A stretch of 64,000 nucleotides of DNA, taken from a virus (Duplodnaviria > Caudoviricetes). Shown here one piece after another: positions 1 to 7,209 of this stretch. The position numbers and the translations under genes are program-made. The notes beneath the pieces were generated by a model that made no database searches, was not told the origin of the DNA, and saw nothing but the letters and a program-made list of their open reading frames with translations. Location of the stretch: IMG/VR virus record IMGVR_UViG_3300020577_006811, positions 18,195-82,194 of that record; one strand, written 5' to 3'. Position 1 is the first letter of the stretch. Each line of letters starts with the position of its first letter.

Positions 1-1
1 C

Positions 2-478
2 CGCTGGCCCGACGAAACCTACGAGATGTGGCGACTGCGCACACAGGAGAAGTGGGGTCTGTGCGAATGGATCGCGCATTCGTGCAGGCGCTTCAGCGTC
101 AACGAACTTCTGATTGAGGCTAAGGCGACCGGCATCACAGTCGCTCAAGAGCTTCGGCGGCTGAATGGCAACGATGGCTGGGGCATTCAACTAAAGACTC
201 CGCAGGGCGACAAGGTCGCACGTGCCTATGCGGTGCAAAGCACGCTAAGCTCCGGGCTCGTATATGCGCCAGACAAAGCCTGGGCCGATCTTGTGCTTGA
301 GGAAACCAGTTCGTTTCCCAAACACCGCTATAAAGATTTGACCGATTCTACCTCAATGGCGTGGCTTCACGTCCGCGAGATGGGCATGTTGACTAGACCT
401 GAAGAACGGTTGCTTGCCGAGCAAATGGCCGCACAATACCGGCCGCAAACCGCCCCACTTTACCCAGGATCGCGATGA
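2..478 (+). CDS. terL: Terminase large subunit, C-terminal nuclease domain (5'-partial; frame open to window start)
   Basis: LLIEAKATG, PQGDKVARA, FPKHRYKDLTDSTSMA match the RNase H-like terminase C-terminus; lies upstream of portal. Confidence 0.9.
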   Translation, partial: RWPDETYEMWRLRTQEKWGLCEWIAHSCRRFSVNELLIEAKATGITVAQELRRLNGNDGWGIQLKTPQGDKVARAYAVQSTLSSGLVYAPDKAWADLVLEETSSFPKHRYKDLTDSTSMAWLHVREMGMLTRPEERLLAEQMAAQYRPQTAPLYPGSR

Positions 479-1394: not shown

Positions 1395-1484
1395 GGGAAG
1401 GGTTCCCCTCAGCGGTCTGTAAAACCGCCGGCTTTGAAAGAGAGGGGTGGCTGCCTAGAGGATCGTAACCTCCCCAACCCACCA
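1395..1484 (+). tRNA. tRNA-Tyr(GTA)-like gene with non-canonical fold, possibly degenerate
   Basis: Perfect anticodon arm GCGGT-CTGTAAA-ACCGC, A73 plus CCA; no D-arm, two A-A acceptor mismatches, T-loop ATCGTAA. Confidence 0.55.
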
Positions 1485-1562: not shown

Positions 1563-1578
1563 TCTAAGTAGATTGCCC

Positions 1579-1618
1579 TTGCAATGTCTCGCGCACCATG
1601 CCATGCAGGGCCATGGAC
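1579..1618 (+). promoter_or_regulatory. Putative promoter of tRNA sub-cluster 2
   Basis: TTGCAA-N17-CATGCA, same 19-mer as 1133-1151 with one mismatch. Confidence 0.5.
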
Positions 1619-1719
1619 ACGACGATCACAACACGACGACCGAGACGGCCACGGCGACCCGCCAGGTAACGTCCGCATTCCGTGTTGTGCGCATCGCGCG
1701 CAAATCCTCCATCATTATA

Positions 1720-2044: not shown

Positions 2045-2127
2045 GCGCAAGTAGCCGGTTCCGGCTTCTACCCGGTTATCCGTAATTGGAGCTGAAAATG
2101 AGGGTTCGAATCCTTCCTTGCGCGCCA
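2045..2127 (+). tRNA. tRNA-Arg(TCT)-like gene lacking a canonical D-arm
   Basis: Perfect acceptor GCGCAAG/CTTGCGC, T-arm GAGGG-TTCGAAT-CCTTC, GCCA end; 9-nt 5' linker and 24-nt post-anticodon segment. Confidence 0.65.
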
Positions 2128-2136
2128 AACAAAAAC

Positions 2137-2159
2137 GGCGGGGCCTTTCGGCACCCGCC
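2137..2159. terminator. Hairpin between the convergent tRNA clusters, probable terminator
   Basis: GGCGGG...TTTC...CCCGCC stem with an A-run on the left (U-run for the minus strand). Confidence 0.55.
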
Positions 2160-6756: not shown

Positions 6757-7209
6757 ATGAGCACGCTTCTCAAGTCCCCCATTCTCAGCCGCATGAAGAT
6801 TGATCTTCAAAAGCTGGCAGAGCGGGACGGGAAAACATCATTCAAGGACTTGGTCTTCAAGAACATTGGCAAGCTGGACGACTTCGTCGTGCTTGGCGAT
6901 GACGTCTTGGTGGCGACCTACGTCAAGATGGGCCGCACCGCTGGCGGCATCATTCTCACCGACAAATCGGTGGACGAGGACCGCTGGCAGGGCAAGGTGG
7001 GCCTCGTTCTGAAGCTTGGCGAAAGCGCCTTCAAGTACGAAGGGGCCTACGAATACAAGGGCACCGTTCCCAAGGTTGGCGACTACGTCGTGTTCCACAC
7101 CAGCGACACGCGAGAGGTTGGCATCAATGGCCATTCTTGCCGCACGGTGTCTTCCAGCTTGGTCCGCATGATCCTTCCAGATGAAGCCGCCGCCGATTCG
7201 ATCTACTGA
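6757..7209 (+). CDS. GroES/Cpn10-like co-chaperonin
   Basis: VLGDDVLV, RTAGGIIL, GLVLKLG, KVGDYVVF match the Cpn10 fold. Confidence 0.8.
   Translation: MSTLLKSPILSRMKIDLQKLAERDGKTSFKDLVFKNIGKLDDFVVLGDDVLVATYVKMGRTAGGIILTDKSVDEDRWQGKVGLVLKLGESAFKYEGAYEYKGTVPKVGDYVVFHTSDTREVGINGHSCRTVSSSLVRMILPDEAAADSIY

What the first reader, a model, noticed from the sequence alone, without database searches (positions are those of the whole stretch)
2045..2127. Second D-armless tRNA (Arg TCT) with the same rearranged architecture
Seen: intact 7-bp acceptor, canonical T-arm and GCCA end, which argues against a decaying pseudogene. The 5' linker is 9 nt and the post-anticodon segment is 24 nt. That segment holds a D-loop-like TAATTGG in a TCC/GGA hairpin, then GCTG that can pair with the 5' TAGC. 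The Tyr-like gene shows the same layout. Inference: a class of phage tRNAs with the D-stem/loop supplied from the 3' side of the anticodon arm, possibly evading host tRNA-targeting defences or acting as decoys.
Basis: partly seen in the sequence, partly recalled or inferred. Interest (0 to 1): 0.72.

Follow-up and report, generated by a model that had tools for sequence, protein, structure and literature searches.

The report
Rewired non-cloverleaf phage arginine tRNA
This 83-base phage gene is very probably a working arginine tRNA (anticodon UCU) whose anticodon arm sits inside the D-arm instead of after it; more than a hundred phage sequences share this non-cloverleaf wiring, and I found no paper that describes it.

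Summary
The sequence facts hold at 2045-2127: a 7-bp acceptor stem, a normal T arm, an encoded GCCA end, and an anticodon loop reading UCU with U33 and A37.

It is not D-armless. In 114 distinct relatives, nearly all from phage contigs, covariation supports:
- a 2-bp D-stem, G2054-C2092 and C2055-G2091;
- a long hairpin that starts directly after that stem (2056-2082) and carries the anticodon;
- an 8-nt D-loop-like bulge (2083-2090) lying between the hairpin and the 3' strand of the D-stem.

The D-loop A at 2085 and the last connector base, U2099, covary like the classic 15:48 tertiary pair (A/U 108, G/C 8, G/G 7, no other combination).

Almost all members carry arginine anticodons and the four bacterial ArgRS identity elements. 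They lie in tRNA clusters on the same strand, follow their neighbours in whether CCA is encoded, and tend to fill an arginine anticodon the cluster otherwise lacks.

ARAGORN misses most members. Rfam's tRNA model finds about half, at marginal scores.

This scan has already flagged the same class on other DNA several times. I found no paper describing it. Charging, decoding and the reason for the rewiring are untested, and the defence-evasion idea remains speculation.

The parts
2045..2051 (+). Acceptor stem, 5' strand
   Evidence: Seven pairs with 2117-2123. All seven alignment columns covary in 114 relatives, 98.4% paired.
2052..2053 (+). U8- and A9-like bases, invariant in the family
   Evidence: U and A in 114 of 114. 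They could pair with G2094 and U2093, but none of the four ever varies, so pairing is neither shown nor excluded.
2054..2055 (+). D-stem 5' strand (10- and 11-like)
   Evidence: G2054-C2092 column: GC 74, AU 35, UA 3, CG 1, GU 1, none unpaired. C2055-G2091 column: CG 74, UA 20, AU 9, UG 3, GC 1, 7 unpaired. The 5' side was left free in every pattern scan.
2056..2058 (+). Base of the long hairpin, 5' strand
   Evidence: C2056-G2082 is invariant. G2057-C2081 column: GC 86, AU 16, CG 9, UA 2, GU 1, none unpaired. G2058-C2080 column: paired in 74 of 114.
2059..2064 (+). Anticodon stem, 5' strand
   Evidence: Pairs with 2072-2077. The four inner G-C pairs fall in columns that covary strongly. The two outer positions are U-U in this copy, in columns that are unpaired in 25 and 16 of 114 members.
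2065..2071 (+). Anticodon loop, with anticodon UCU at 2067-2069
   Evidence: Family counts: U33 113 of 114, C35 113 of 114, position 36 U 81 or G 33, A37 110 of 114. Anticodons: UCU 74, ACG 19, UCG 10, CCU 4, CCG 1, UGU 1.
2072..2077 (+). Anticodon stem, 3' strand
   Evidence: See 2059-2064. RNAalifold predicts the same stem on its own.
2078..2079 (+). Two-base bulge on the 3' strand of the hairpin
   Evidence: The first base is A in 111 of 114 members; the second varies.
2080..2082 (+). Base of the long hairpin, 3' strand
Evidence: Pairs with 2058-2056.
2083..2090 (+). D-loop-like bulge (14-, 15-, 18-, 19- and 20-like bases)
   Evidence: U2083, A2084, A2085, G2088, G2089 and A2090 are invariant within the 114, though partly fixed by the search patterns. 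The A2085 column covaries with the U2099 column like the 15:48 pair.
2091..2092 (+). D-stem 3' strand (24- and 25-like)
   Evidence: Covaries with 2055 and 2054.
2093..2099 (+). Seven-base connector to the T arm; U2099 is 48-like
   Evidence: A scan for variants at U2093 found no family member. When the 15-like base is G, the 48-like base is C or G, never U.
2100..2116 (+). T arm
   Evidence: Five pairs, 99.3% paired in the family, four columns with double changes. The T-loop consensus is kept.
2117..2123 (+). Acceptor stem, 3' strand
2124..2127 (+). Discriminator G and encoded CCA
   Evidence: Family discriminator: G 44, A 38, U 32, C 0. CCA is encoded in 62 of 114 and tracks the habit of neighbouring tRNAs.
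2137..2159 (+). Stable hairpin 9 nt after the CCA end; possible end of the plus-strand tRNA operon
   Evidence: -20.1 kcal/mol, z -3.4, no shuffle folds as well. There is no U tract, and the simple terminator scan did not list it. Function inferred only.

Best explanation
Window 2045-2127 (+) encodes a functional elongator tRNA-Arg(UCU) that reads AGA and probably AGG. It belongs to a large phage-borne family with a rewired core.

Shown by comparison:
- The acceptor stem and T arm are standard.
- After U8 and A9, two D-stem pairs form between 2054-2055 and 2091-2092.
- The 5' strand then runs straight into a long hairpin, 2056-2082. This is three pairs, a two-base bulge, then a six-position stem, and it carries a normal seven-base anticodon loop.
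- The D-loop bases sit as an eight-base bulge (2083-2090) between the hairpin and the 3' strand of the D-stem.
- A seven-base connector replaces position 26, the anticodon arm and the variable loop.
- A 15:48-like tertiary pair covaries.

Inferred:
- The D-stem and hairpin stack into one arm about as long as the usual D-stem plus anticodon stem. The bulged GG reaches the T loop, giving an L shape.
- The RNA is cut out of the cluster transcript by RNase P and the 3' processing enzymes, like its neighbours.
- It is charged by the host ArgRS, through the A20-like A2090, C2068 (35), U2069 (36) and G2124 (73).
- It is used by the ribosome.

Why the core is rewired is unknown. The most likely reason is resistance to an enzyme that recognises ordinary tRNA-Arg.
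For: 1. Family size. 114 distinct members (146 instances) came from IMG/VR pattern scans, GenBank phages and a few bacterial contigs.
2. Secondary structure. The model is 96.1% paired. Its covariation score is 0.87, against 0.22 for shuffles and 0.10-0.16 for slid controls. RNAalifold predicts the same consensus independently.
3. D-stem. The pair combinations are compensatory, although only the 3' strand was constrained in the scans.
4. Tertiary pair. The 15-like and 48-like bases occur as A/U 108, G/C 8, G/G 7, and in no other combination.
5. Identity. 108 of the 109 anticodons read are arginine anticodons. U33, C35, U/G36 and A37 are near-invariant. The discriminator is never C. The A after GG is invariant. 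This matches the bacterial ArgRS set of A20, C35, U/G36 and A/G/U73 (PMC9976931).
6. Context. The median distance to the next ordinary tRNA is 56 nt, and 686 of 689 neighbouring tRNAs lie on the same strand.
7. 3' end. Members that encode CCA have neighbours that do so 95% of the time. Members that do not have neighbours that do so 21% of the time.
8. Complementarity. A same-anticodon ordinary tRNA-Arg lies in the cluster for 8 of 42 members, against 14.7 expected from shuffling (fraction of shuffles at or below 8: 0.002).
9. This window. The cluster holds ordinary tRNA-Arg(ACG) and tRNA-Arg(CCG) but no other UCU. The gene starts 6 nt after its neighbour. The phage uses AGA 74 times and AGG 65 times in a rough ORF set. 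The family model scores this copy 93.8 bits, and it is the only copy in the 82-kb record.
Against: - No expression, processing, charging or decoding data exist for any member.
- Nearest-neighbour folding does not favour the model. For this copy it gives -24.7 kcal/mol against -29.4 for an alternative fold. Only 12 of 114 members have the model as their minimum-energy fold.
- This copy has two U-U oppositions at the outer end of the anticodon stem.
- U8, A9, U2093 and G2094 never vary, so their pairing is untested.
- Much of the D-loop and connector invariance was imposed by my search patterns.
- The three-dimensional arrangement is inferred only. The D-stem would have to sit with reversed strand polarity relative to a normal tRNA.
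- The sequences are related, so cell counts overstate the number of independent events.
Confidence: 0.7

Rival explanations
1. It is a tRNA-like decoy or sponge. The RNA is made and folds as described, but it is not used in translation. It would bind or be cut by a host tRNA-Arg-directed nuclease or another tRNA-binding factor, sparing the real tRNAs.
For: A real anticodon loop and a tRNA-like shape would also suit a decoy. Phage tRNAs are documented counter-measures to tRNA nucleases (PMC10264068, PMC11464382 and PMC11555353, listed; PMC12445682). Paundecimvirus Pseudomonas phages carry a member as their only tRNA-like gene within the 3-kb stretches examined.
Against: A pure decoy has no need for the full ArgRS identity set, including a discriminator that is never C. 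It has no need for an anticodon that complements the ordinary arginine anticodons of the cluster. Nor does it need a 3' end that follows the CCA habit of its neighbours. The documented cases work by supplying resistant, functional tRNAs, not sponges.
Confidence: 0.12
2. It is a tRNA-shaped RNA with another job, for example a source of regulatory fragments, a primer, a processing signal in the operon, or a substrate of a phage enzyme.
For: The unusual core and the poor agreement with thermodynamic folding leave room for a non-translational role.
Against: The restriction to arginine (and, in sister groups, isoleucine) anticodons, U33 and A37, and the identity elements are what a decoding tRNA needs. 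No linked protein gene stood out near this copy.
Confidence: 0.1
3. It folds as ViennaRNA predicts for this copy: an ordinary-order cloverleaf with a 5-bp, 4-nt-loop D-like hairpin (2053-2066) and a second arm at 2073-2094 that has no proper anticodon loop. It would then be a non-decoding tRNA-like RNA, or resemble tRNA-Sec.
For: This fold is the minimum-energy structure of this copy, at -29.4 kcal/mol. The Rfam tRNA-Sec model gives a weak 23-bit match.
Against: The helices specific to that fold are only 59-68% paired across 114 relatives. The tRNA-Sec score is far below its 47-bit threshold, and there is no UCA anticodon.
Confidence: 0.03
4. It is a decaying or scrambled tRNA pseudogene.
For: ARAGORN does not call it. 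It is not annotated in GenBank relatives.
Against: There are more than 100 distinct relatives with compensatory changes in every helix. The functional bases are invariant, and the acceptor stem, T arm and CCA end are intact.
Confidence: 0.02

Closest known systems
Ordinary class I bacterial and phage tRNA-Arg (Rfam RF00005), for example this cluster's own tRNA-Arg(ACG) at 1799-1874 and tRNA-Arg(CCG) at 1963-2038
   Same: A 7-bp acceptor stem, U8 and A9, the 10-25 and 11-24 pairs, the D-loop bases (A14, R15, G18, G19, A20-like), a 15:48-type covarying pair, a seven-base anticodon loop with U33 and A37, the T arm, the discriminator and the CCA end. The ArgRS identity elements are all present. 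Ordinary arginine tRNAs are the best non-member hits of the family model, at 37 and 33 bits.
   Different: The order along the chain differs. The anticodon hairpin lies between the 5' strand of the D-stem and the D-loop, not after the D-arm. The D-stem keeps only two classic pairs and continues into the hairpin. The D-loop is a bulge, not a hairpin loop. A seven-base connector replaces position 26 and the variable loop. The result is a three-way junction rather than a four-way junction.
D-armless mitochondrial tRNAs, for example metazoan mt-tRNA-Ser(AGY) and nematode or mite minimal tRNAs (PMC2797822, PMC4394434, listed)
   Same: There is no D hairpin before the anticodon arm, the anticodon helix is extended, and the overall design is a three-way junction.
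   Different: Those tRNAs have lost the D-stem and the G18-G19 elbow contacts, and they need adapted synthetases and factors. This RNA keeps the D-stem pairs, the GG motif, the 15:48-like pair and a standard T loop. It is found in phages of bacteria.
Unusual bacterial cloverleaves such as tRNA-Sec (Rfam RF01852), and allo-tRNAs with 8/4 or 9/3 acceptor/T geometry (from my own knowledge)
   Same: They are non-standard tRNAs that ordinary gene finders handle poorly. There is a weak 23-bit match to the tRNA-Sec model.
   Different: Those keep the normal order of arms and change helix lengths. Here the helix lengths of the acceptor stem and T arm are standard (7/5) and the order of elements is changed.
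Circularly permuted and split tRNA genes of Cyanidioschyzon and archaea (mentioned in PMC8450103)
   Same: The gene order of tRNA parts departs from the cloverleaf order.
   Different: Those genes are processed into ordinary cloverleaf tRNAs. Here both acceptor strands are in normal order, bases 22-23 are missing, and no simple cut-and-join would yield a cloverleaf.
Phage tRNAs that resist tRNA-targeting defences: T5 tRNA-Lys against PARIS, phage tRNA-Tyr against retron-Eco7, phage tRNA-Thr against P2-OLD (PMC11464382, PMC11555353, PMC12445682)
   Same: They are phage-encoded tRNAs in clusters whose sequences or stems differ from the host's. This is a plausible selective setting.
   Different: Those are ordinary cloverleaves with local changes in the anticodon loop or stem. 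No nuclease or defence system is known to be linked to this rewired class.

Membership tests
Rewired phage tRNA-Arg family (model R1, built here from 114 sequences) | Full-length match to the family covariance model | tested here: met
   93.8 bits, E about 4e-22, model positions 1-83. Ordinary tRNAs score 37 bits or less. This copy was in the training alignment, so the match is partly by construction. Phage relatives score 66-98 bits.
Rewired phage tRNA-Arg family (model R1) | Two D-stem pairs formed by the bases after U8 and A9 and the two bases after the GGA motif | tested here: met
   G2054-C2092 and C2055-G2091. The family columns covary.
Rewired phage tRNA-Arg family (model R1) | Anticodon hairpin nested inside the D-stem, closed by an invariant C-G pair plus two covarying pairs, with a two-base 3' bulge | tested here: met
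   C2056-G2082, G2057-C2081, G2058-C2080, and the bulge at 2078-2079.
Rewired phage tRNA-Arg family (model R1) | D-loop-like bulge and seven-base connector with a covarying 15:48-like pair | tested here: met
   A2085 with U2099, the commonest combination (108 of 123).
Rewired phage tRNA-Arg family (model R1) | Arginine anticodon in a seven-base loop with U33 and A37 | tested here: met
   UCU at 2067-2069, U2066, A2070.
Canonical cloverleaf tRNA (Rfam RF00005) | Score at or above the 29-bit gathering threshold | tested here: inconclusive
   Not reported when the 64-kb window was scanned at the gathering threshold. It scores 32.5 bits when 101 bases are searched alone, with the middle misaligned. 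Ten of 20 relatives reach 29-44 bits.
Canonical cloverleaf tRNA (Rfam RF00005) | D hairpin (10-13 paired with 22-25, closing the D-loop) placed before the anticodon arm | tested here: not met
   No conserved hairpin lies between the acceptor stem and the anticodon stem. The candidate hairpin at 2053-2066 is 61% paired in the family. The D-loop motif lies after the anticodon arm.
Canonical cloverleaf tRNA (Rfam RF00005) | Acceptor stem, T arm and anticodon arm | tested here: met
Canonical cloverleaf tRNA (ARAGORN) | Called by ARAGORN with the correct anticodon | tested here: not met
   Not called in the window. Only 11 of 114 relatives overlap a call, most with a wrong anticodon.
Substrates of bacterial ArgRS (identity set in PMC9976931, Table 1) | A20, C35, U or G36, and A, G or U73 | tested here: met
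   A2090 follows GG, and C2068, U2069 and G2124 are present. The family counts agree. That A2090 occupies the spatial place of A20 is inferred. Charging itself cannot be tested with these tools.
D-armless (mitochondrial-type) tRNA | D-arm replaced by a short connector, with no D-stem pairs and no G18-G19 motif | tested here: not met
   D-stem pairs covary and the GG motif is invariant.
tRNA-Sec (Rfam RF01852) | Gathering score of 47 bits and a UCA anticodon | tested here: not met
   23 bits. The anticodon is UCU.
Same family as the Tyr-like gene at 1395-1484 | Match to one common model or layout | tested here: not met
   There is no R1 match at 1395-1484. The Tyr-like gene has an 8-bp acceptor stem and a differently placed enclosing helix.

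The most novel reading that the evidence does not exclude
Bacterial viruses maintain a widespread class of translationally active tRNAs that are not cloverleaves. The core was rewired because it lets the phage's arginine tRNAs (and, in sister groups, isoleucine tRNAs) escape enzymes that destroy or disable ordinary tRNA. These could be host anticodon nucleases or the phage's own attack on host tRNA. The rewired tRNAs would still be charged by the host synthetase and accepted by EF-Tu and the ribosome.
Probability: 0.2. Interest if true: 0.9.

Novelty: new variant of a known kind. Interest (0 to 1): 0.78.

Why it matters
The cloverleaf with its four-way junction is treated as universal for tRNAs used by bacterial ribosomes. 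The known exceptions are reduced mitochondrial tRNAs that need co-evolved partners.

A common phage tRNA family that keeps every functional element but threads the chain differently would have several consequences:
- It would show that RNase P, ArgRS, EF-Tu and the ribosome tolerate a different core topology.
- It would give a natural test case for what the tRNA core must provide.
- It would mean phage tRNA censuses and codon-usage studies are systematically missing arginine tRNAs.
- It would offer new scaffolds for orthogonal tRNA engineering.
- If the rewiring is a counter-defence, it would add a structural route to the known sequence-level escape of phage tRNAs from tRNA nucleases.

Tried and rejected
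- **Terminase relatives.** Relatives found through the neighbouring terminase (44 loci, at most 59% identity) carry no comparable cluster next to the terminase gene, so they gave no homologue.
- **ViennaRNA minimum-energy fold of this copy.** Rejected, because its specific helices are not conserved.
Rejected.
- **tRNA-Sec and other Rfam families.** Only sub-threshold noise.
- **Variants at U2093, and A15-like with a non-U 48-like base.** Only chance matches turned up, so those bases are effectively invariant.
- **Bacterial genomes.** Of 120 pattern matches returned, only 6 are true members.
- **Promoter and terminator consensus scan around the cluster.** Nothing found.
- **Literature.** Seven full-text searches found no description of the class. 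I also searched within three papers for specific points; these are used elsewhere in the report. Subscription-only and older papers are not covered.
- **Intron or permuted-gene reading.** Rejected. The middle section is only 4-7 nt longer than normal, and no cut-and-join restores a cloverleaf.

Full report
**1. What is at 2045-2127**

The window comes from an 82-kb IMG/VR virus record. A tRNA cluster lies between the large terminase gene and the portal gene. ARAGORN calls nine ordinary tRNAs at 1237-2402 but nothing at 2045-2127.

Read directly, the stretch has:
- a perfect 7-bp acceptor stem, 2045-2051 with 2117-2123;
- a standard T arm, 2100-2116;
- discriminator G2124 and an encoded CCA end;
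- a seven-base loop at 2065-2071 with U33, anticodon UCU and A37, closed by four G-C pairs.

It starts 6 nt after tRNA-Arg(CCG). That matches the 4-6 nt spacing of the other genes in the cluster.

Rfam's tRNA model did not report it when the whole window was scanned at the gathering threshold. Searched alone, the stretch scores 32.5 bits against a 29-bit threshold, with the acceptor stem, the first D-stem bases and the T arm aligned and the middle misaligned.

**2. Relatives**

A BLAST search of GenBank phages found unannotated relatives:
- Pseudomonas phages PA11, TC6, FBPa8 and Ty (Zobellviridae);
- T5-like Vibrio phages, where the anticodon is ACG;
- Microbacterium phage Pumpernickel.

Pattern scans of IMG/VR were built on the conserved motif between the anticodon arm and the T arm. 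They left the 5' half free, and together with one scan of bacterial genome contigs they gave 114 distinct sequences in 146 instances. In the bacterial collection only 6 of the 120 matches returned are true members. The class is therefore mainly viral.

**3. Secondary structure**

I tested three structures on the 114-sequence alignment.

*My model:*
- acceptor stem;
- a D-stem between the bases after U8 and A9 and the bases after the GGA motif;
- a hairpin that begins directly after the D-stem 5' strand, with three pairs, a two-base 3' bulge and a six-position stem;
- T arm.

It is 96.1% paired. Its covariation score is 0.87, against 0.22 for shuffles and 0.10-0.16 when partners are slid by 1-3 columns. 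RNAalifold predicts the same consensus without being told, less two weak pairs.

The D-stem evidence is strong.

| Pair in this copy | Pair types in the family column |
|---|---|
| G2054-C2092 | GC 74, AU 35, UA 3, CG 1, GU 1, none unpaired |
| C2055-G2091 | CG 74, UA 20, AU 9, UG 3, GC 1, 7 unpaired |
| G2057-C2081 (hairpin base) | GC 86, AU 16, CG 9, UA 2, GU 1, none unpaired |

The scans selected variants on the 3' strand only, so the matching changes on the 5' strand are real compensation.

The Pumpernickel copy lacks both strands of the 2-bp D-stem at once.

U2052, A2053, U2093 and G2094 never vary. A scan for variants at U2093 found only chance matches. Their pairing is therefore neither supported nor refuted.

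*The helices specific to the ViennaRNA fold of this copy* are 59-68% paired.

One point counts against my model. Nearest-neighbour energies do not favour it. This copy gives -24.7 kcal/mol for the model against -29.4 for the alternative, and the model is the minimum-energy fold for only 12 of 114 members.

**4. A tertiary pair**

Extra members found with the family model hinted that the second A of the D-loop-like motif changes together with the last base of the connector. Two scans tested this, each fixing one of the two bases and leaving the other free or varied.

| 15-like base | 48-like base | Members |
|---|---|---|
| A | U | 108 |
| G | C | 8 |
| G | G | 7 |
| A | not U | 0 |
| G | U or A | 0 |

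This is the pattern of the 15:48 Levitt pair of ordinary tRNAs; G15:G48 is a known variant. It places A2085 as 15-like and U2099 as 48-like. It also argues that the elbow of the molecule is built as in a normal tRNA.

**5. Evidence that it is a working arginine tRNA**

- Anticodons in the family are UCU 74, ACG 19, UCG 10, CCU 4, CCG 1 and UGU 1.
- U33 is present in 113 of 114, C35 in 113 of 114, position 36 is U or G only, and A37 is present in 110 of 114. The discriminator is G, A or U and never C. The A after GG is invariant.
- These are exactly the bacterial arginine identity elements: A20, C35, U/G36 and A/G/U73 (PMC9976931, Table 1 and the arginine section).
- 99 of the 114 members have another tRNA in the fetched locus, at a median distance of 56 nt. 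686 of 689 neighbouring tRNAs are on the same strand.
- Members that encode CCA sit among neighbours that encode it (mean 0.95). Members that do not sit among neighbours that mostly do not (0.21).
- The rewired anticodon duplicates an ordinary arginine anticodon of its own cluster in 8 of 42 cases, against 14.7 expected (fraction of shuffles at or below 8: 0.002).
- In this window the ordinary arginine tRNAs read with ACG and CCG, so the rewired gene supplies the only UCU. A rough ORF set uses AGA 74 times and AGG 65 times, together 13% of arginine codons.
- The family model finds exactly one member in the whole 82-kb record.
- A stable hairpin at 2137-2159 follows the gene, ahead of two convergent minus-strand tRNAs.

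**6. Detection and annotation**

ARAGORN overlaps only 11 of 114 members, mostly with a wrong anticodon. Rfam's tRNA model at its gathering threshold reports 10 of 20 members tested, at 29-44 bits, against 45-71 bits for most of their ordinary neighbours.

So the statement that gene finders miss the class holds for ARAGORN but only half holds for Infernal-based tools. I could not run tRNAscan-SE.

In GenBank the Pumpernickel copy lies between annotated tRNAs but is not itself annotated. The PA11 copy overlaps the end of an annotated HNH endonuclease gene.

**7.

The linker lengths are right if only the four G-C pairs are counted as the anticodon stem.

The Tyr-like gene at 1395-1484 does not match the family model. 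Its one relative among my loci (L083 8945-9020) shows:
- an 8-bp acceptor stem;
- a helix between the 5' linker and a strand 3' of the anticodon arm;
- a crossing variable-arm pairing.

The idea is related but the layout is different. This window's copy also has two A-A oppositions in its acceptor stem.

**8. How it most likely works**

Shown: the secondary structure above and the 15:48-like pair.

Inferred:
- The two D-stem pairs, the three pairs at the hairpin base, the often G-U pair at the top of the anticodon stem and the five inner anticodon-stem pairs stack into one arm of about eleven layers. The usual D-stem plus anticodon stem gives about ten.
- The 5' strand of this arm runs continuously from the acceptor stem to the anticodon. 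The D-loop is a bulge in the returning strand, and its GG reaches the T loop.
- The junction is three-way, closed by U8 and A9 on one side and the seven-base connector on the other.
- The D-stem therefore lies with strand polarity opposite to a normal tRNA. This is the least certain part of the model.
- Processing, arginylation through A2090, C2068, U2069 and G2124, and ribosome use are all inferred.

The reason for the rewiring is open. Phage tRNAs that resist tRNA nucleases are well documented (PMC10264068, PMC11464382, PMC11555353, PMC12445682). That makes escape from an enzyme that recognises ordinary tRNA-Arg the leading guess, but nothing here tests it.

**9. Comparison with what is known, and novelty**

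It works like an ordinary class I tRNA-Arg and carries all of its parts. It fails the defining cloverleaf feature of a D hairpin ahead of the anticodon arm.

It is also none of the following:
- a D-armless mitochondrial-type tRNA;
- tRNA-Sec;
- an allo-tRNA with altered acceptor/T geometry;
- a permuted gene that matures into a cloverleaf.

The family model also picks up sister genes with isoleucine anticodons (UAU, GAU), one with CUU, and arginine versions with an added hairpin.

Seven full-text searches found no description of the class, and the tRNAscan-SE 2.0 paper does not mention phage at all. Subscription-only and old papers are not covered by these searches.

Earlier notes of this scan describe the same class on other genomes many times. 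One later check reports that part of a sister claim fell, without saying which part. I therefore tested each claim myself and do not repeat the blanket statement about gene finders.

**10. Limits**

- The conserved D-loop and connector motifs were used to find members, so their invariance within the 114 is partly circular.
- Members that diverge there, such as the Pumpernickel copy and the 48-64-bit hits, are under-sampled.
- The sequences are related, so counts are not independent events.
- No experimental data exist.

Noticed in passing
window 1395-1484: A Tyr-like (GUA) tRNA-shaped gene that ARAGORN and Rfam do not call. It has an 8-bp acceptor stem with two A-A oppositions in this copy. 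A helix between 1405-1410 and 1443-1448 encloses the anticodon arm, and 1430-1432 may pair with 1453-1455 across it. A relative at L083 8945-9020 has a perfect 8-bp acceptor stem and compensatory changes. It is not a member of the arginine family model.
   Followed up: partly
window 2137-2159: A stable G+C-rich hairpin (-20.1 kcal/mol, z -3.4) lies 9 nt after the CCA end, between the plus-strand tRNA genes and the convergent minus-strand tRNA-Gln and tRNA-Cys. It has no U tract. It may be a terminator or a processing site.
   Followed up: partly
window 1563-1719: A 157-nt gap inside the otherwise tightly packed tRNA cluster, between tRNA-Met and tRNA-Thr, has no tRNA or Rfam match.
   Followed up: no
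L002 15742-18672 (runs into window 1-478): The large terminase ORF is 976 aa. Terminase profiles match mainly residues 451-950, and residues 88-152 weakly match profiles that are not terminase-related. This may be an insertion such as an intein.
   Followed up: no
window 6757-7209: An ORF matches a phage GroES-like co-chaperonin family (phrog_3188, E 1e-10), just downstream of the portal gene.
   Followed up: no
L047 1502-1584, L048 1502-1584, L049 1496-1578: In Paundecimvirus Pseudomonas phages (PA11, FBPa8, Ty) a rewired tRNA-Arg(UCU) is the only tRNA-like gene found in the 3-kb stretches examined. In PA11 and Ty it lies at the 3' end of, and partly overlaps, an annotated gene: the HNH endonuclease in PA11 and a hypothetical protein in Ty.
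   Followed up: partly
L050 1483-1563: The Microbacterium phage Pumpernickel copy lacks both strands of the 2-bp D-stem at once. It is left unannotated between annotated tRNA genes.
   Followed up: partly
L068 923-1007, L082 1802-1886, L063 9649-9731, L144 743-826, L066 3891-3971, L134 692-775, L135 11000-11080: Sister genes with the same rewired layout carry isoleucine anticodons (UAU or GAU), and one carries CUU. They score 48-64 bits with the arginine family model.
   Followed up: partly
L087 1949-2042, L071 915-1008: These rewired tRNA-Arg(ACG) variants are 94 nt long and carry an extra hairpin in the connector before the T arm.
   Followed up: no
L146 2352-2434: This one family member has the loop CCUGUAA, meaning C at position 33 and a UGU anticodon. 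It is the only non-arginine anticodon among the 109 read.
   Followed up: no
L052 3917-3999 and 5499-5581; L078 2309-2391 and 3156-3237; L057 (three copies); L135 (several): Some phage contigs carry two or more rewired arginine tRNA genes with different anticodons.
   Followed up: partly
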